50,505 nt of DNA, from the sequence record MN850606.1. One strand, 5' to 3'. A program made the translations under genes and the position numbers. This document shows positions 14,837-47,485 of this stretch, piece by piece. The notes under the pieces are model-generated. The model made no database searches. It saw nothing but the letters and a program-made list of their open reading frames with translations, and was not told the origin of the DNA. Within the stretch, counting starts at the first letter, position 1. Each line of letters begins with the position of its first letter. This DNA is from Escherichia phage tuinn.

Positions 14837-15313
14837 TTAGCTATTCGTGCTGTTATCACCTTTGTAGAATCTTCCGCCTGGTTCGTAGTCTGAATTTTTG
14901 ACTACGCGCAACATTTCGTATTTGTCGCAACGGGTAGTAAGAGGCTTGCCGTTAGAATCAAACCGCAGATCTGGACGACAAAACGAGGCGCGGTATCCTT
15001 TGCATCCATTATATTTGTAGTCGTTATGCACCTTTTGTGCTCCAGCGGCTGAAATCATACCACGCTTTCGCCATTGGTTAACGACTTGCTGAGATACGCG
15101 CAGACGTCGAGCCATAGCAGGAACACCGCCGTAATACTCGATCAGAATGTCAAGGCGAGATTTCAGGCTTGCTTTTACCTCATCTCGCAGGATAAGAAAT
15201 CCGGTTCGGTGTTTTCGTGGTTTTTTGTCTTTACCTCGTCGCGTTCCGTTGTTACCGTTAATAGTGCGCTTGTCGATCTCACCCGTAGATACTGCAATTC
15301 GTGCATCTTTCAT
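14837..15313 (-). CDS. helix-turn-helix DNA-binding protein, candidate transcription regulator
   Basis: HTH-like ARRLRVSQQVVNQWRKRG; basic N-terminus; GAGGTG RBS. Confidence 0.5.
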   Translation of the reverse strand: MKDARIAVSTGEIDKRTINGNNGTRRGKDKKPRKHRTGFLILRDEVKASLKSRLDILIEYYGGVPAMARRLRVSQQVVNQWRKRGMISAAGAQKVHNDYKYNGCKGYRASFCRPDLRFDSNGKPLTTRCDKYEMLRVVKNSDYEPGGRFYKGDNSTNS

Positions 15314-18626: not shown

Positions 18627-18884
18627 ATGAAAAAAGAGAGAAGCGTTTATTTAAATGAAACTGGCGAGTGGTTGTTATTTCGCGCTATGGTGTGCGATGC
18701 ACTTGATAAAAACCCTAACGTGAAAAAGATGATTGATTGCGATCCGTGGGAATTTTCAAGCGCATTAGATATGAGCTTTGATGAGACAAGGAAACTCCCT
18801 CTTGAAAAATGGCACGAACAAATCAGAAATGATATGCAAGAGTTTGTAGATTCGTGGAATTTTCAGAACGGAATGATCCACTAA
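18627..18884 (+). CDS. hypothetical protein
   Basis: ORF with RBS; no motif. Confidence 0.4.
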   Translation: MKKERSVYLNETGEWLLFRAMVCDALDKNPNVKKMIDCDPWEFSSALDMSFDETRKLPLEKWHEQIRNDMQEFVDSWNFQNGMIH

Positions 18885-18903
18885 TAGCACTTTTTGTTAA
18901 AAC
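18883..18903 (+). promoter_or_regulatory. conserved motif copy
   Basis: AATAGCACTTTTTGTTAAAAC, hairpin, ATAATT, CATCGAAACGAAC box (18933..18945). Confidence 0.6.
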
Positions 18904-18953
18904 GCCCGGCATTTTGTCGGGCATAATTATTTCATCGAAACGAACGTGAGGAA

Positions 18954-19139
18954 ATGAAAATGGTAGTATATAGCAAGAAAGCATTTGACCAGGCGCAACA
19001 AGCCGCACGCGAGGCGGTAAAAGGTGGAACGAAAAACAATATGCAGCTTGATTGGGGCGCTGCAATGATTCTACTTCGCGTTGCATATGGTCACTACCCA
19101 TTAGAATTTGCGGAGGCATATTATAAGCATGAAGGTTGA
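18954..19139 (+). CDS. hypothetical protein
   Basis: Short ORF after promoter-like cassette. Confidence 0.35.
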   Translation: MKMVVYSKKAFDQAQQAAREAVKGGTKNNMQLDWGAAMILLRVAYGHYPLEFAEAYYKHEG

Positions 19140-21825: not shown

Positions 21826-21840
21826 TGCCTCCTTTATTTT
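21813..21840. terminator. bidirectional terminator
   Basis: AGGAGGC-TTAAT-GCCTCCT hairpin plus T-run. Confidence 0.6.
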
Positions 21841-22064
21841 TATGCGTCGGGCCACATATGAGTTTCGTTTGTTGGCTTGTTCGATTCGTCGTACTGCCTT
21901 ACTTCAATGCTGCAAGTGTCGCCGTACATTTCTGCAATCTTGCGCTCATTTTCAACCGCCGATTGCTCACTCCAGCCTGAATCCTTATCGTAAACTGTCG
22001 GGATTTCAGAAGAAGATCCATTTGCATGATTGTATACGCGAACTACTAAAAACTTGCTGGACAT
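21840..22064 (-). CDS. hypothetical protein
   Basis: ATG 22064 with AAGGA RBS; downstream of promoter-like cassette. Confidence 0.4.
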   Translation of the reverse strand: MSSKFLVVRVYNHANGSSSEIPTVYDKDSGWSEQSAVENERKIAEMYGDTCSIEVRQYDESNKPTNETHMWPDA

Positions 22065-22126
22065 AATTTTTCCTTTTTGGTTGGTTCGTTTCGATGAAAC
22101 AAATATACCCGACACAAGGTCGGGAG

Positions 22127-22146
22127 TTTTAACAAAAAATGCTATT
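22127..22146 (-). promoter_or_regulatory. conserved motif copy
   Basis: TTTTAACAAAAAATGCTATT on +; hairpin, TATATT and CATCGAAACGAAC box follow on minus strand. Confidence 0.6.
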
Positions 22147-24908: not shown

Positions 24909-24962
24909 GATTAGATCTCCTTTGTTTGTTCGATGTGATTATGCCAGGTTTTTACACCTGGC

Positions 24963-26824: not shown

Positions 26825-26878
26825 CTTTAAATCCTCGTTTGTTGTCGATGCGCTTACTATACCAATCAGCAGCGCATA

Positions 26879-26901
26879 TTTTTTAACAAAAAGTGCTATT
26901 T
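26879..26901 (-). promoter_or_regulatory. conserved motif copy
   Basis: TTTTTTAACAAAAAGTGCTATTT; TATAGT on minus strand at 26856..26861. Confidence 0.6.
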
Positions 26902-27599: not shown

Positions 27600-27853
27600 T
27601 TTTTCTTCTCCTGCAATAAGCAAACATCATTGATAAAATCAGCACGGCCCTTAATGTTGCTGATGTGGAACGTCTTTTCAGCGTACAGGCCATCACCTTC
27701 AATCACGATCATTACGCGAGTCGGTTTATTCACTGGCGCACACGAAAAGAGTGGTCGCGCCGGAAGAAATTTAGTGGTCACATCCAGGTTAGCCCTGGCG
27801 GCCCTGCAAAACGCCTCCGCCAGATCCAAATCATTTTCGGTAATCACCGCCAT
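27587..27853 (-). CDS. hypothetical protein
   Basis: 88-aa ORF. Confidence 0.4.
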   Translation of the reverse strand: MAVITENDLDLAEAFCRAARANLDVTTKFLPARPLFSCAPVNKPTRVMIVIEGDGLYAEKTFHISNIKGRADFINDVCLLQEKKKCWM

Positions 27854-28125
27854 TACTTCTTGATCTCCTTACTGATAAATTTCAGCACCTGGCGCAAGAA
27901 AACTTCGTTGTTGATAGTCGCTGGCAATTCTTCTTTCACTTCTTGCGGCAGATAGATATTGCCGTGCCAGGTCAAGCAATCGTAGTTGATACGATAAGAG
28001 CAAAGCCACTCGCAATCGTTATCTGCTTCCCAAATGCAGAGTTGCAGAACATCGCCAAAATCTTCAACAGTCAGATCCAGACCGTGACGCTTAGCGAAAT
28101 TGAAAGTGGTTTTGCTGATGTTCAT
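27853..28125 (-). CDS. hypothetical early protein
   Basis: First gene of minus-strand early block; AGGAG RBS. Confidence 0.45.
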   Translation of the reverse strand: MNISKTTFNFAKRHGLDLTVEDFGDVLQLCIWEADNDCEWLCSYRINYDCLTWHGNIYLPQEVKEELPATINNEVFLRQVLKFISKEIKK

Positions 28126-28185
28126 TTACTATCTCCTGAGCGGTTCGTTTCGATGTGTGTAATGTACCCGATCAGGTGGCATGAG

Positions 28186-28206
28186 TTTTAACAAAAAGTG
28201 CTATTT
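28186..28206 (-). promoter_or_regulatory. conserved motif copy, candidate promoter of minus-strand early block
   Basis: TTTTAACAAAAAGTGCTATTT; TACATT and CATCGAAACGAAC box follow on minus strand. Confidence 0.6.
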
Positions 28207-28435
28207 GACGGTTATCGCCAGGATTGCGATCGAAATAATCAAAAGTAATCATTCGTAATCAAATCACGTCAAAATGATGATTGCCTTTGCAAATTTGATG
28301 AGAAAAGTAATCACGTTTAATCATTGGTTGCAGGGGAGATAGTGAAACCTTCCCCTCTTGCCTCACTTTTCCGCCTGGCTGTCAGTGGTTGTTGTCTTTT
28401 GTTCACCCCTGTTACCGATTTCAGGCGGCGTGTTT

Positions 28436-28759: not shown

Positions 28760-28787
28760 TTGACACGCACCAAATAGCTTTTATAAT
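28760..28787 (+). promoter_or_regulatory. near-consensus sigma70 promoter of plus-strand early block
   Basis: TTGACA, 16-nt spacer, TATAAT. Confidence 0.65.
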
Positions 28788-41214: not shown

Positions 41215-42330
41215 ATGAAGGCAAAACAAAGATTTGATAGCGCCAAAGTAAAGGCGCACTTTGATGATAACGGGTTTTTAGTTGATCGCCCTATCGTGGC
41301 GCGAATTGGTTTACAAGTCTATCAGACTCCTTTCGGTGAGCGCCGAGAATTTCGCCCTGCGTCAGAAGTATTCAAGGCCGACTCGCTCGCCACCTTTGCA
41401 GGGAAGCCGGTCACGGTTGGTCACGTCACGGTAACGCCAGAAAACGCCGAAAAGGTTGTAGTTGGTTCTTGTGCTGGCGCTGGTGTGCCGAACGGGATCG
41501 GCGTAGAGGTTCCGTTAAGCATTTACTCAAAACGAGCAATCGAAAGCGCAAAGAAGCGAGACACGGCGGAAATTTCAGTTGGTTATACATCGGTTGATAT
41601 TGATAAACCAGGCTGGGGCAATAATAAAACTGGTGAGTACGTTTTCGATGAGGACGTTAGCGAAGACTGGAAACCTGATTCTCCTGATTGGGTTAAGTTT
41701 GATGCAATCCAGACTGAAATCAAGGTAAACCACATCGCGTTAGTTTTCCGAGGTCGAGCTGGCATTGCAAAATTAAACCTTGATAGCCAGCAAGATTTTC
41801 CGTATAGTGACGACGTTATTAACAACAAAGAGGATCAAATCATGACTGTAAAAATTAAACTGGATGGCGCTGTAGAGTTTGACGTGCCGAAAGCGGTTGC
41901 GGATCACATTGAATCACTGAAAGCTGATACCAAAGCGCAGAAAGAAAAGGCTGACAGCCTGGAAGCTGAGCGAGACGCACTGCAAACCAAAGTAGATGGC
42001 ATTCAGGATCAGATTGATGCCGCAGTCAAGAAGGCCAAAGAAGATGCCGAGCAATATGCTCAATTAGTTGCAGACGCTAAAGAGTTAGGCATCAAGTGCG
42101 ACGGCCTGGATGCGAAAGCAATCAAGGTTGCATACATCAAGGAAGTTATGGGCAATGACGTTTCTGATAAAACTGATGCCTATATCGAAACAGCTTTCGA
42201 CATCGCCAAAAACTCTGATAAAATGGCGGCGCAGCGTAAGAGCATTAAAGGTGACTCTTTCGCGAATGAAAAGCAGGATGACGCAGGTTCTAAGCTGAAT
42301 CCTAACGCTCGTTTTGAGAAACTGAAATAA
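41215..42330 (+). CDS. capsid scaffolding / prohead protease-like protein
   Basis: Globular N-terminal half plus coiled-coil acidic C-terminal half. Confidence 0.5.
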   Translation: MKAKQRFDSAKVKAHFDDNGFLVDRPIVARIGLQVYQTPFGERREFRPASEVFKADSLATFAGKPVTVGHVTVTPENAEKVVVGSCAGAGVPNGIGVEVPLSIYSKRAIESAKKRDTAEISVGYTSVDIDKPGWGNNKTGEYVFDEDVSEDWKPDSPDWVKFDAIQTEIKVNHIALVFRGRAGIAKLNLDSQQDFPYSDDVINNKEDQIMTVKIKLDGAVEFDVPKAVADHIESLKADTKAQKEKADSLEAERDALQTKVDGIQDQIDAAVKKAKEDAEQYAQLVADAKELGIKCDGLDAKAIKVAYIKEVMGNDVSDKTDAYIETAFDIAKNSDKMAAQRKSIKGDSFANEKQDDAGSKLNPNARFEKLK

Positions 42331-43685: not shown

Positions 43686-43711
43686 CTGATAGCATAAAAA
43701 AACATTGCACG

Positions 43712-43730
43712 TTTAACAAAAAGTGCTATC
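43712..43730 (-). promoter_or_regulatory. conserved motif copy, inverted relative to late operon
   Basis: TTTAACAAAAAGTGCTATC on +. Confidence 0.6.
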
Positions 43731-46737: not shown

Positions 46738-47400
46738 ATGCACTTGCCTAATGGTTCTCAAATTTTCATCGGCGTTAATATGGGTGAGCCAATTAGCGCG
46801 ACTCAAATCAGCAATGCTGATAATCCTGTTTTTACAACCGAAAACACTCAAAGCATCAAAAAAGGCGCTTATGTTCTTATTGAAACATCTTCTTGGGGCA
46901 AACTTGTTAGTCGAGTGCTTCGAGTTAAGGAAGTATCAGATAATGCAAGTGTTACTCTTGAGGGTGTTAGCACTAAAGATACAAACGTATTTCCAGAAGG
47001 ACAGAACACAGCAACTTTCCGAGAAGTGAAATCTTGGGTAGAGGTTCCTTGCGTACAGGATCTTGCGCAGGACGGCGGCGAGCAACAGTATTACACTTAT
47101 CAGTGTTTGGCTGATGACCATGAGCAGCAGTTGCCGACCTACAAGAGCGCGGTTTCTCTTACCTACACTTTCGCTCATGAATATGATAACCCGATTTATC
47201 CGATCTTGCGCGAGGCTGAGGAATCCGGCGACGTAACCGCTTTGCGTATGTACGTGCCGAAAGCTAAAGAGATGCGTTGCTGGGCTGGCGTATTGTCTTT
47301 TAATGACATTCCGCAAACAACTATGAACGAAATGGAAACTGTTTCCCTTTCTGTATCTATGAAAGGCCGATTCACGTTCTTACCTTCCGACGTTAAGTAA
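46738..47400 (+). CDS. major tail protein
   Basis: AAGGAGG RBS; 220 aa; followed by strong terminator and then the G/GT chaperone. Confidence 0.65.
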   Translation: MHLPNGSQIFIGVNMGEPISATQISNADNPVFTTENTQSIKKGAYVLIETSSWGKLVSRVLRVKEVSDNASVTLEGVSTKDTNVFPEGQNTATFREVKSWVEVPCVQDLAQDGGEQQYYTYQCLADDHEQQLPTYKSAVSLTYTFAHEYDNPIYPILREAEESGDVTALRMYVPKAKEMRCWAGVLSFNDIPQTTMNEMETVSLSVSMKGRFTFLPSDVK

Positions 47401-47405
47401 AACAA

Positions 47406-47426
47406 GGGGCGTTGCGCCCCTTTTTT
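47406..47426 (+). terminator. rho-independent terminator after major tail gene
   Basis: GGGGCG-TTG-CGCCCC plus T6. Confidence 0.75.
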
Positions 47427-47466
47427 CATTCCTGTAAAATCAATCTATCAAATAAATTAATTCCAC

Positions 47467-47485
47467 TTTTAACAAAAAGTGCTAT
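47467..47485 (-). promoter_or_regulatory. conserved motif copy fused to RBS of tail chaperone gene (inverted)
   Basis: TTTTAACAAAAAGTGCTAT followed by AAGGAG and ATG 47500. Confidence 0.6.

What the first reader, a model, noticed from the sequence alone, without database searches (positions are those of the whole stretch)
18883..18953. Three-copy promoter/5'UTR cassette with conserved box CATCGAAACGAAC
A subset of motif promoters shares a longer architecture: motif, short GC hairpin (CCCGAC..GTCGGG type), -10-like hexamer, then CATCGAAACGAAC 10-25 nt before the RBS. Copies: 18883..18953 (+), 22066..22146 (-), 28126..28206 (-). The box would lie near +1 or in the 5' UTR, so it may mark co-regulated transcripts, for example through an RNA-binding factor or a processing site.
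Basis: seen in the sequence. Interest (0 to 1): 0.5.

Follow-up and report, generated by a model that had tools for sequence, protein, structure and literature searches.

The report
Start-site box of phage promoter cassettes
The three repeats are the best copies, in this T1-like coliphage, of a compact promoter-plus-terminator cassette, and the conserved box is most likely the transcription start and first dozen transcribed bases, a sequence also found at the same position behind ordinary host-type promoters in unrelated phages.

Summary
CATCGAAACGAAC occurs exactly three times (0 in shuffles), each 5 nt after a -10-like hexamer that lies 18 nt after the motif ATAGCACTTTTTGTTAAAAC. The GC hairpin is present in only two copies.

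The window is a T1-like phage (Warwickvirus, 99.6% to phage orkinos). The motif is the published 21-nt intergenic repeat of T1-like phages, whose function is unknown.

The box does not mark a three-gene regulon. Across 517 unique repeat sites, positions 50-62 have the consensus CATCGAAACGAAA. 41% of sites match within 3 mismatches at exactly that offset, and match quality is graded. By geometry the box spans -1 to +12 of an extended -10 promoter, followed by a 25-31 nt A/C-rich, U-poor leader with no significant predicted structure.

The same box sits 5-6 nt after consensus sigma-70 promoters in the PeSL promoter/terminator cassettes of T4-like phages (Phi1/RB49 group, KP15) and in uncultivated viral contigs. 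T7 A1 matches 10/13 in register.

Best reading: it is the start site and initial transcribed leader of a PeSL-like mobile expression cassette. No transcript 5' ends have been mapped, so this rests on geometry and comparison. An RNA-factor or processing-site role has no support.

The parts
18884..18903 (+). Copy 1: 20-nt direct repeat (DR) ATAGCACTTTTTGTTAAAAC, predicted -50..-31. The stop codon of the upstream ORF (18627-18884) ends at its first base.
   Evidence: matches the published consensus aaATAGCACnnnTTGnTAAAA (PMC11447400)
18904..18922 (+). Copy 1: GC stem-loop GCCCGGC-ATTTT-GTCGGGC followed by ATAATTATTT. It is terminator-like for read-through from the upstream gene and is embedded in the promoter spacer.
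   Evidence: z -3.13. Compensatory CCCGGC/GTCGGG -> CCAGGC/GTCTGG in an ortholog. The homologous T1 hairpin is annotated as a terminator.
18922..18927 (+). Copy 1: -10 hexamer CATAAT, preceded by G at -14
   Evidence: position 37 is G in 86% of 519 sites; hexamer consensus TATAAT at positions 39-44
18933..18945 (+). Copy 1: box CATCGAAACGAAC, predicted -1..+12 (predicted +1 = A18934)
18948..19139 (+). Copy 1: SD GAGGA (18948-18952) and 59-aa gene starting at ATG 18960 (orkinos_45, phrog_2180, unknown function). Predicted 5' UTR is 26 nt.
22126..22145 (-). Copy 2: DR ATAGCATTTTTTGTTAAAAC
22108..22124 (-). Copy 2: stem-loop CCCGAC-CTTGT-GTCGGG followed by TATATTTGTT. It is terminator-like for the helicase-YdbL unit upstream.
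   Evidence: z -2.60. Compensatory CCCGAC/GTCGGG -> CCCGAT/ATCGGG in two orthologs.
22102..22107 (-). Copy 2: -10 hexamer TATATT
22084..22096 (-). Copy 2: box CATCGAAACGAAC (predicted +1 = A22095)
   Evidence: CATCGAAACGAA is unchanged in 4 of 4 orthologs whose flanks fall to about 73% identity
21840..22075 (-). Copy 2: SD AAGGA (22071-22075) and 74-aa gene 21840-22064 (orkinos_51, phrog_27210, unknown function). Predicted 5' UTR is 31 nt.
28185..28204 (-). Copy 3: DR ATAGCACTTTTTGTTAAAAC. This is the first leftward promoter of a divergent region, with no co-directional gene upstream.
   Evidence: homology to Hanrivervirus and Tlsvirus phages begins at the DR
28161..28166 (-). Copy 3: -10 hexamer TACATT. 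The spacer 28167-28184 has no hairpin.
   Evidence: (z +0.78)
28143..28155 (-). Copy 3: box CATCGAAACGAAC (predicted +1 = A28154)
   Evidence: CATCGAAACGA is invariant in 4 orthologs while the spacer, the -10 and the post-box sequence differ
27853..28137 (-). Copy 3: SD AGGAG (28133-28137) and 90-aa gene 27853-28125 (orkinos_64, phrog_6147, unknown function). Homologs occur in T4-like and rV5-like phages. Predicted 5' UTR is 29 nt.
26838..26850 (-). Related weaker box CATCGACAACAAA at the same offset in the DR promoter at 26899 (-)
   Evidence: CATCGACAACAAA and CATCGACAACGAA are among the commonest 13-mers at this offset

Best explanation
The cassette is a compact intergenic expression unit of T1-like phages, of the same kind as the PeSL (promoter-early stem-loop) cassettes of T4-like phages.

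Its parts, in order:
- the stop codon of the upstream gene;
- the 21-nt direct repeat, at -50 to -31;
- where a co-directional gene lies upstream, a variable GC stem-loop that acts as terminator or attenuator, with the T-rich -10/discriminator as its U-tract;
- an extended -10 element;
- 5 nt;
- the box;
- a Shine-Dalgarno sequence, with the start codon at about +26 to +31.

The box CATCGAAACGAAC is the start site (the classic CAT context, A = +1) plus the first dozen transcribed nucleotides. Host sigma-70 RNA polymerase is inferred to initiate there.

The A/C-rich, U-poor sequence is inferred to be selected because it gives efficient initiation and promoter escape and a short unstructured leader ahead of the ribosome-binding site. 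As a conserved patch it may also serve as homology for cassette recombination.

Shown: the geometry, the family-wide consensus, the positional specificity, the conservation in orthologs and the occurrence in other phage families.

Inferred: the actual start site, and which of escape, translation, stability or recombination drives the conservation.
For: - Fixed register. In 517 unique DR sites from the window, T1, TLS, Rtp and IMG/VR contigs, 214 have the box within 3 mismatches at exactly offset 50 and 8 at offset 51. Any other sampled offset gives at most about 0.6% of sites.
- Column consensus. Positions 50-62 read CATCGAAACGAAA, following G at -14 (86%) and a TATAAT-like hexamer at positions 39-44.
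- DR association. Of 99 unique contexts of the exact 12-mer CATCGAAACGAA, 96 have a DR at offset 50/51.
- Anchoring. The predicted 5' UTR varies between 25 and 35 nt while the box-to-(-10) distance does not vary, so the box is anchored to the promoter and not to the RBS.
- Leader composition. Positions 51-63 are A 49%, C 23%, G 17%, T 11%, against 24% T in coding sequence. The leader has no significant predicted structure (z about 0).
- Orthologs. The box is invariant at copies 2 and 3 while neighbouring non-coding bases change.
- Other families. Phi1 PeSLs read TTGACA-17-CATAAT-acacc-CATCGAAACGAGA. KP15 has three such cassettes. Krischvirus-type contigs carry many.
- Positional enrichment in IMG/VR. 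For TATAAT-N(0-14)-CATCGAAACGA, gaps of 5 and 6 give 16 and 23 distinct contexts, against 1-5 for every other gap. Flanks differ between contig groups, although some contexts recur in related contigs.
- T7 A1 reads CATCGAGAGGGAC at -1..+12, a 10/13 match in register.
- PeSL promoters and stem-loops were shown experimentally to be strong sigma-70 promoters and terminators. PeSL crossovers were mapped between the -10 and the SD/ATG (PMC2839356).
- In the window, hairpins are present at 10 of 12 DR promoters that have a co-directional upstream gene and absent from all 3 that start a unit.
Against: - No 5'-end mapping exists for any T1-like phage in the literature I could search, so +1 is predicted from geometry only.
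- The DR replaces a canonical -35. TTGnTA lies 22 bp from the -10, and TTAAAA lies 19 bp from it. Host polymerase may therefore need a phage or host factor, which is untested.
- At copy 1 the box drifts among orthologs (CAACGAAGCAAAC, CATCAAAACGAAC, CCAACGAAAACCAC; T1 has CATAGAAACGAAA), so the exact sequence is not essential there.
- The 517 sites are not phylogenetically independent.
- The T7 resemblance was recalled first and checked afterwards.
- Nothing here separates an effect on transcription from effects on translation, stability or recombination.
Confidence: 0.6

Rival explanations
1. The box has no expression function of its own. It persists because these cassettes spread and homogenise by recombination (PeSL-like modular shuffling, gene conversion), so it is a homology patch or a hitch-hiker.
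For: - PeSL crossovers were mapped between the -10 and the SD/ATG.
- Homology between the window and other genera starts exactly at the DR of copy 3.
- HNH endonuclease genes of T1, TLS and Rtp each carry their own DR cassette.
- The copy-3 gene has homologs in T4-like phages.
Against: - In all three copies a perfect 13-mer is flanked on both sides by divergent bases (TATTT / TGTTT / ACACA before it; GTGAGG / CAACCA / CGCTCA after it). That is not what a conversion tract would leave.
- The same 11-mer sits at gap 5-6 behind promoters with unrelated flanks in unrelated contigs.
- The offset from the -10 is exact.
Confidence: 0.15
2. The box is a DNA operator overlapping +1. It is bound by a phage regulator (for example the Cro/YdaS-like HTH protein at window 14837-15313) to switch a subset of early promoters off or on.
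For: - A site overlapping the start point is a classic repressor position.
- The phage encodes an HTH regulator (phrog_2856; weak Pfam P22_Cro and YdaS hits).
- In copy 2 the T-tract and the box form a dyad, TTTGTTTC-ATC-GAAACGAA.
Against: - The box itself is not palindromic. Its internal repeat (CGAAA twice) has a 5-bp period, which places the two units on opposite faces of the helix.
- The dyad is absent from copies 1 and 3.
- The box also occurs in T4-like phages and in uncultivated contigs. Whether those encode a homolog of this regulator was not checked.
- Matches are graded rather than two-state.
Confidence: 0.1
3. The box acts in the RNA as a specific site for an RNA-binding protein, an sRNA or an endonuclease, which marks a small regulon.
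For: - It would lie at the extreme 5' end of the mRNA.
- It is invariant in the orthologs of copies 2 and 3.
- It contains GAA-AC-GAA-AC-GAG triplets with a 5-nt period, which loosely recalls repeat-binding proteins such as TRAP (from memory, not tested).
Against: - No conserved structure.
- No Rfam family.
- No antisense copy in the window.
- Complementarity to 16S, 23S or 5S rRNA is no better than for shuffled boxes.
- The box is anchored to the -10, not to the RBS.
- It is present at about 40% of DR promoters and in other phage families, so it does not define three genes.
- Non-DR promoters of the same phage also have A/C-rich leaders of similar length.
Confidence: 0.08

Closest known systems
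21-nt intergenic direct repeats of T1-like phages (aaATAGCACnnnTTGnTAAAA; TLS re-annotation, PMC11447400)
   Same: The motif of all three cassettes is this repeat. [quoted passage not shown]
   Different: That paper describes only the repeat and leaves its function open (stoperator, enhancer site or UP element). It does not describe the fixed extended -10, the embedded stem-loops or the CATCGAAACGAA box.
PeSL (promoter-early stem-loop) mobile regulatory cassettes of T4-like phages RB49/Phi1, PST and nt-1 (PMC2839356, PMC4122927)
   Same: - The upstream stop codon lies in an AT-rich stretch.
- The promoter has a GC stem-loop between the upstream element and the -10, or overlapping the -10.
- The SD and ATG are at the 3' end.
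- The cassettes flank small genes of unknown function.
- There are mosaic boundaries at the cassette.
- Phi1 PeSLs carry the same box at the same offset.
   Different: RB49/Phi1 PeSLs have a near-perfect TTGACA -35 at 17 bp. The T1-like cassette has the DR there instead and relies on a TGn extended -10. Promoter, terminator and mini-circle activity were demonstrated for PeSLs and have not been tested for these cassettes.
Early E. coli promoters A1 and A3 of phage T7
   Same: Both start at the A of CAT. A1 reads CATCGAGAGGGAC (10/13 identical to the box, same register). A3 reads CATGAAACGACAG and shares GAAACGA after a 1-nt shift.
   Different: There is a canonical -35, no DR, and the leaders are long. 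The similarity is short, and I recalled it before checking it.
Downstream or initial-transcribed-region effects in strong phage promoters (T5 N25 and its anti-ITS). Cited from memory of Bujard's and Hsu's work, not read here.
   Same: The sequence from +1 to about +20 influences promoter escape and in vivo strength without touching the -35 or -10.
   Different: Those sequences are different, and the effect has not been tested for this box.

Membership tests
T1-like 21-nt intergenic direct repeat | Consensus aaATAGCACnnnTTGnTAAAA | tested here: met
   0, 1 and 0 mismatches to ATAGCACTTTTTGTTAAAAC in copies 1-3; consensus from PMC11447400
T1-like 21-nt intergenic direct repeat | Intergenic, in the direction of transcription, about 76 nt upstream of a start codon | tested here: met
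   76, 81 and 79 nt to ATG 18960, 22064 and 28125
PeSL cassette | Repeated intergenic motif that starts at the stop codon of the upstream gene and ends with the SD and ATG of a small gene | tested here: met
   In copy 1 the upstream stop codon ends at the first base of the DR. Copy 3 has no co-directional upstream gene.
PeSL cassette | Sigma-70 consensus -35 and -10 at about 17 bp | tested here: not met
   The -10 is present (CATAAT / TATATT / TACATT, with G at -14). No -35 lies at 16-18 bp, and the sigma-70 scan does not call these sites. TTGnTA is 22 bp away and TTAAAA 19 bp away.
PeSL cassette | GC-rich stem-loop within or next to the promoter, acting as terminator or attenuator | tested here: inconclusive
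   Present in copies 1 and 2 with compensatory changes in orthologs, and terminator-like by scan; absent in copy 3. 58% of 517 DR sites have a stem-loop against 6% of shuffles. Termination activity cannot be tested here.
PeSL cassette | Demonstrated strong promoter activity and recombination between cassettes (mini-circles) | not testable with these tools
   Only indirect evidence: a homology break at the DR of copy 3.
Intrinsic (rho-independent) terminator | GC-rich stem followed by a T-rich tract | tested here: inconclusive
   The scan calls 18904-18922 + ATAATTATTT and 22124-22108 + TATATTTGTT. The T-tracts are interrupted. Copy 3 has none. The T1 record annotates the homologous hairpin as a terminator.
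Structured cis-regulatory RNA or known RNA family | Match to a curated family, or a structure more stable than shuffles | tested here: not met
   No Rfam match at gathering thresholds. Leaders from +1 give z = +0.07, -0.01 and +0.18.

The most novel reading that the evidence does not exclude
CATCGAAACGA would be a portable start-site/leader module. Phages of several unrelated families would place it 5-6 nt after the -10 of their host-polymerase promoters. It would be a previously undescribed functional promoter element, acting as an initial-transcribed 'escape/leader enhancer' or as the target of a common host factor. It would travel between phage families with PeSL-type cassettes, and may be the preferred crossover point.
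Probability: 0.3. Interest if true: 0.6.

Novelty: new variant of a known kind. Interest (0 to 1): 0.42.

Why it matters
The authors of the 2024 TLS re-annotation list the function of the 21-nt intergenic repeats of T1-like phages as an open question. Placing the repeat at a fixed distance from an extended -10, an embedded terminator hairpin and a conserved start-site box turns that question into a concrete model that can be tested: the repeats are the upstream halves of PeSL-like promoter/terminator cassettes.

The box recurs at the same register behind ordinary sigma-70 promoters in T4-like phages and in uncultivated phages. This suggests a general determinant of strong early phage expression, which would be useful for annotating phage transcription units and for designing promoters. 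It also points to a shared route of module exchange between phage families.

For the finding as originally stated, a three-gene regulon, the result is deflationary.

Tried and rejected
- Rfam scan of the whole window: no match.
- Folding the three leaders from +1: no structure beyond shuffles.
- Complementarity of the box to E. coli 16S, 23S and 5S rRNA: best 10/12 pairs including G-U, which 48 of 300 shuffled boxes also reach on 16S.
- Related downstream genes: Pfam finds nothing, and PHROGs gives three different families of unknown function.
- Link to a DR subtype: the box occurs with the TTT, GAA and TAA variants (40%, 21% and 39% of sites within 2 mismatches), so it is not subtype-specific.
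- Link to the hairpin: the box occurs in all hairpin classes and in sites with no hairpin, so the two features are independent.
- Literature: searches by the sequence strings TTTTTGTTAAAA, ATAGCAC and CATCGAAACGA, and for T1-like or Drexlerviridae transcriptomes or start-site maps, returned only the TLS paper for the repeat and nothing for the box.
- Scan of 596 Gb of bacterial genomes for TATAAT-N5-6-box: 120 or more taxonomically scattered hits, about what chance predicts (roughly 140), so uninformative.
- Naming the uncultivated contigs that carry the box by megablast: three of four had no cultured relative; one was Krischvirus.

Full report
**Identity of the window.** The region is 99.6% identical to Escherichia phage orkinos and about 99% identical to Shigella phage JK16 (Drexlerviridae, Tempevirinae, Warwickvirus), which are T1-like siphoviruses.

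**Checking the observation.**
- CATCGAAACGAAC occurs exactly three times, at 18933-18945 (+), 22084-22096 (-) and 28143-28155 (-). No exact copy appears in 100 dinucleotide-preserving shuffles.
- Each copy follows the same layout: the 20-nt motif ATAGCACTTTTTGTTAAAAC, an 18-nt spacer, a -10-like hexamer (CATAAT, TATATT, TACATT), exactly 5 nt, then the box.
- The GC hairpin is real in copies 1 and 2 (-14.1 kcal/mol each, z -3.1 and -2.6), and both are flagged as terminator-like. It is absent from copy 3 (z +0.78).
- The box ends 2-8 nt before the Shine-Dalgarno sequence and 14-19 nt before the start codons at 18960, 22064 and 28125.
- The downstream genes encode small proteins of 59, 74 and 90 aa. 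They belong to three different PHROG families of unknown function.

**The motif is a known repeat.** It has 14 copies in the window within 3 mismatches, against 0.01 expected. It is the 21-nt intergenic direct repeat of T1-like phages, aaATAGCACnnnTTGnTAAAA. The 2024 TLS re-annotation described 18 intergenic copies about 76 nt upstream of start codons and listed its function as an open question. That paper does not mention a downstream box.

**The box is the consensus of the whole promoter class, not a three-copy special.**
- I collected direct-repeat (DR) sites from the window, T1, TLS, Rtp and about 100 IMG/VR loci, giving 517-519 unique sites.
- Counting from the first base of the repeat, position 37 is G in 86% of sites (the G of an extended -10 TGn). 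Positions 39-44 read TATAAT-like. Positions 50-62 have the consensus C-A-T-C-G-A-A-A-C-G-A-A-A.
- 214 sites (41%) match the box within 3 mismatches at exactly offset 50, and 8 more at offset 51. At sampled control offsets no more than about 0.6% of sites match.
- The number of mismatches runs smoothly: 54, 69, 43, 48, 55, 44, 58 and 48 sites for 0 to 7 mismatches. There is no separate box class.
- Of 99 unique contexts of the exact 12-mer, 96 have a DR at offset 50 or 51.
- Each of the four complete genomes has 3-6 DR promoters within 3 mismatches. In the window, weaker versions lie at 26838-26850 and 24924-24935.

**Where the box sits.**
- The A of CAT is 7 nt after the last base of the -10, so the box spans -1 to +12. 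CAT is the classic start-point context for E. coli promoters (established knowledge; Hawley and McClure).
- The predicted 5' UTR is short, with a median of 25-26 nt, but varies between 25 and 35 nt in box promoters. The box-to-(-10) distance does not vary. The box is therefore tied to the promoter and not to the ribosome-binding site.
- Positions +1 to +13 are A 49%, C 23%, G 17%, T 11%.
- The three leaders fold no better than shuffles, and Rfam has no match.
- Non-DR promoters of the same phage, including a perfect TTGACA-16-TATAAT at 28760-28787, also start A/C-rich leaders of similar length.

**Conservation in orthologs.**
- Copy 2: CATCGAAACGAA is unchanged in four genomes whose flanks drop to about 73% identity. 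The hairpin changes by compensatory substitution, CCCGAC/GTCGGG to CCCGAT/ATCGGG.
- Copy 3: CATCGAAACGA is invariant in four genera-level relatives, while the spacer, the -10 hexamer and the post-box bases differ. Homology begins exactly at the repeat.
- Copy 1: the repeat, hairpin and -10 are conserved as far as T1, but the box drifts (CAACGAAGCAAAC, CATCAAAACGAAC, CCAACGAAAACCAC; T1 has CATAGAAACGAAA).
- Selection therefore acts on the box, but not on every base everywhere.

**The hairpins.**
- 58% of the 517 sites have a perfect GC-rich inverted repeat of at least 5 bp between the repeat and +1, against 6% of shuffles. These lie before the -10 in 75 sites, overlap it in 83 and enclose it in 141.
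- In the window, 10 of 12 DR promoters with a co-directional upstream gene have such a repeat. The three that start a transcription unit (7739, 15325 and copy 3) do not.
- The T1 GenBank record annotates the homologous hairpins as rho-independent terminators.
- The box occurs in every hairpin class, so the two features are independent.

**The decisive comparison.**
- Two exact 12-mers lacking an upstream repeat (of three such exceptions; the third was cut off by a locus end) were in Klebsiella phage KP15, a T4-like Slopekvirus. There, three consecutive small-gene cassettes carry the box 5 nt after a -10, and one has a perfect DR. The record calls two of them putative middle promoters.
- In phage Phi1 (Krischvirus), the intergenic cassettes read TTGACA-17 nt-CATAAT-acacc-CATCGAAACGAGA or CATACCGAAACGAAC, then AGGAG and ATG. 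Two of the four have a GGGG...CCCC stem-loop in the spacer. Phi1 and RB49 are the pair in which PeSL cassettes were defined.
- The PeSL papers describe the same anatomy: an upstream stop codon, an AT-rich region, a sigma-70 promoter, a stem-loop most often between -35 and -10 or overlapping the -10, then the SD and ATG. They show experimentally that the promoters are very strong and the stem-loops terminate. They also show that cassettes recombine, with crossovers mapped between the -10 and the SD or ATG.
- A scan of IMG/VR for TTGACA-N16-18-nATAAT-N5-CATCGAAACGA found 17 loci on contigs of 5 to 173 kb, far above the expectation for 22 specified bases.
- With TATAAT-N(0-14)-CATCGAAACGA, gaps of 5 and 6 gave 16 and 23 distinct contexts, against 1-5 for every other gap. 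Many are followed by an SD and ATG, and their flanks are unrelated between contig groups, although some contexts recur in related contigs.
- T7 promoter A1 reads CATCGAGAGGGAC from -1, a 10/13 match in register. A3 reads CATGAAACGACAG.

**Interpretation.** The cassette is a T1-like version of a PeSL. The direct repeat takes the place of the -35/AT-rich half, and an extended -10 supplies the core promoter. The embedded stem-loop insulates the unit from upstream transcription. The box is the start site plus the initial transcribed leader. That it recurs behind ordinary sigma-70 promoters in other phage families ties it to the host transcription and translation machinery, or to cassette exchange. 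It does not tie it to the repeat or to any T1-specific factor.

**What I cannot separate.** Whether the selected property is initiation and escape, an unstructured U-poor leader for translation or stability, or homology for recombination. I also cannot say whether the repeat needs a phage or host protein.

**Limits.** No transcript 5' ends have been mapped for any T1-like phage in the searchable literature. The sites are phylogenetically related. The T7 similarity was recalled first and then checked. The bacterial-genome scan was at chance level and says nothing.

Noticed in passing
window 47395-47485 (-); T1 (L003) 18760-18850 (-): An orphan DR promoter lies antisense in the tail-gene region and is conserved between the window and T1. 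It reads DR-18 nt-TAGATT-gattt-TACAGGAATGAAA, then the hairpin GGGGCGCAACGCCCC and TTGTTTT. It would produce an RNA of about 35-40 nt ending at a bidirectional terminator, so it is a candidate small antisense RNA. It has no box.
   Followed up: partly
window 43710-43729 (-); T1 15067-15086 (-); TLS 15023-15042 (-): An inverted DR copy sits in the intergenic region just upstream of the major head protein gene. It is conserved across three genera, has a poor -10, and has no gene downstream on its own strand.
   Followed up: no
window 28760-28787 (+): A perfect sigma-70 consensus (TTGACA-16-TATAAT, 12/12) lies divergent from cassette copy 3. It is probably the immediate-early rightward promoter. 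Its leader (AACAGTCAACAACTGGAGGA) is also A/C-rich.
   Followed up: partly
window 29549 (+) and 33588 (+) cassettes; T1 1450, 4864, 47117; TLS 5136, 48919: A second recurrent leader motif, (A)ACCAATCAG(A)GGA, abuts the Shine-Dalgarno sequence at several DR promoters.
   Followed up: no
DR promoters generally, e.g. window 24307 (-), 26899 (-), 34902 (+): In 141 of 517 DR sites a GC-rich inverted repeat encloses the -10 hexamer (for example GGGGTA..TATAGT..TACCCC, or AAGGGCA..TAAAGT..TGCCCTT). No U-tract follows, so these are not obvious terminators. Why the -10 sits in a potential loop is unexplained.
   Followed up: partly
window 28185-28330 (-): Similarity to Hanrivervirus and Tlsvirus phages begins exactly at the DR of copy 3 and is absent upstream of it. 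This is a mosaic boundary at the cassette, as described for PeSLs.
   Followed up: partly
window 21826-22064: There is an annotation conflict. RefSeq JK16 annotates a + strand 'hypothetical protein' (JK16 gp13, window about 21826-21981) and leaves the - strand 74-aa gene unannotated. The - strand gene matches phrog_27210 over its full length (E 2.7e-35), has its own DR promoter, and is the gene annotated in orkinos.
   Followed up: partly
window 22084-22104 (-): In copy 2 the T-tract and the box form a dyad centred on the predicted start, TTTGTTTC-ATC-GAAACGAA. It is predicted as a second hairpin in read-through RNA. A similar dyad occurs in T1 at 41956, but not in copies 1 or 3.
   Followed up: no
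KP15 GU295964 9550-10570 (L142): A T4-like Klebsiella phage carries a perfect T1-type DR and two DR-less or DR-like cassettes with the box, in front of small genes whose homologs are T4-like rather than T1-like. The record labels two of them 'putative middle promoter; discovered using MEME'.
   Followed up: partly
T1 41956 (+), TLS 48195 (-), Rtp 6316 (+) and 21393 (+): The HNH homing-endonuclease genes of T1-like phages are each preceded by their own DR cassette. JK16 has an HNH insertion that the window lacks.
   Followed up: no
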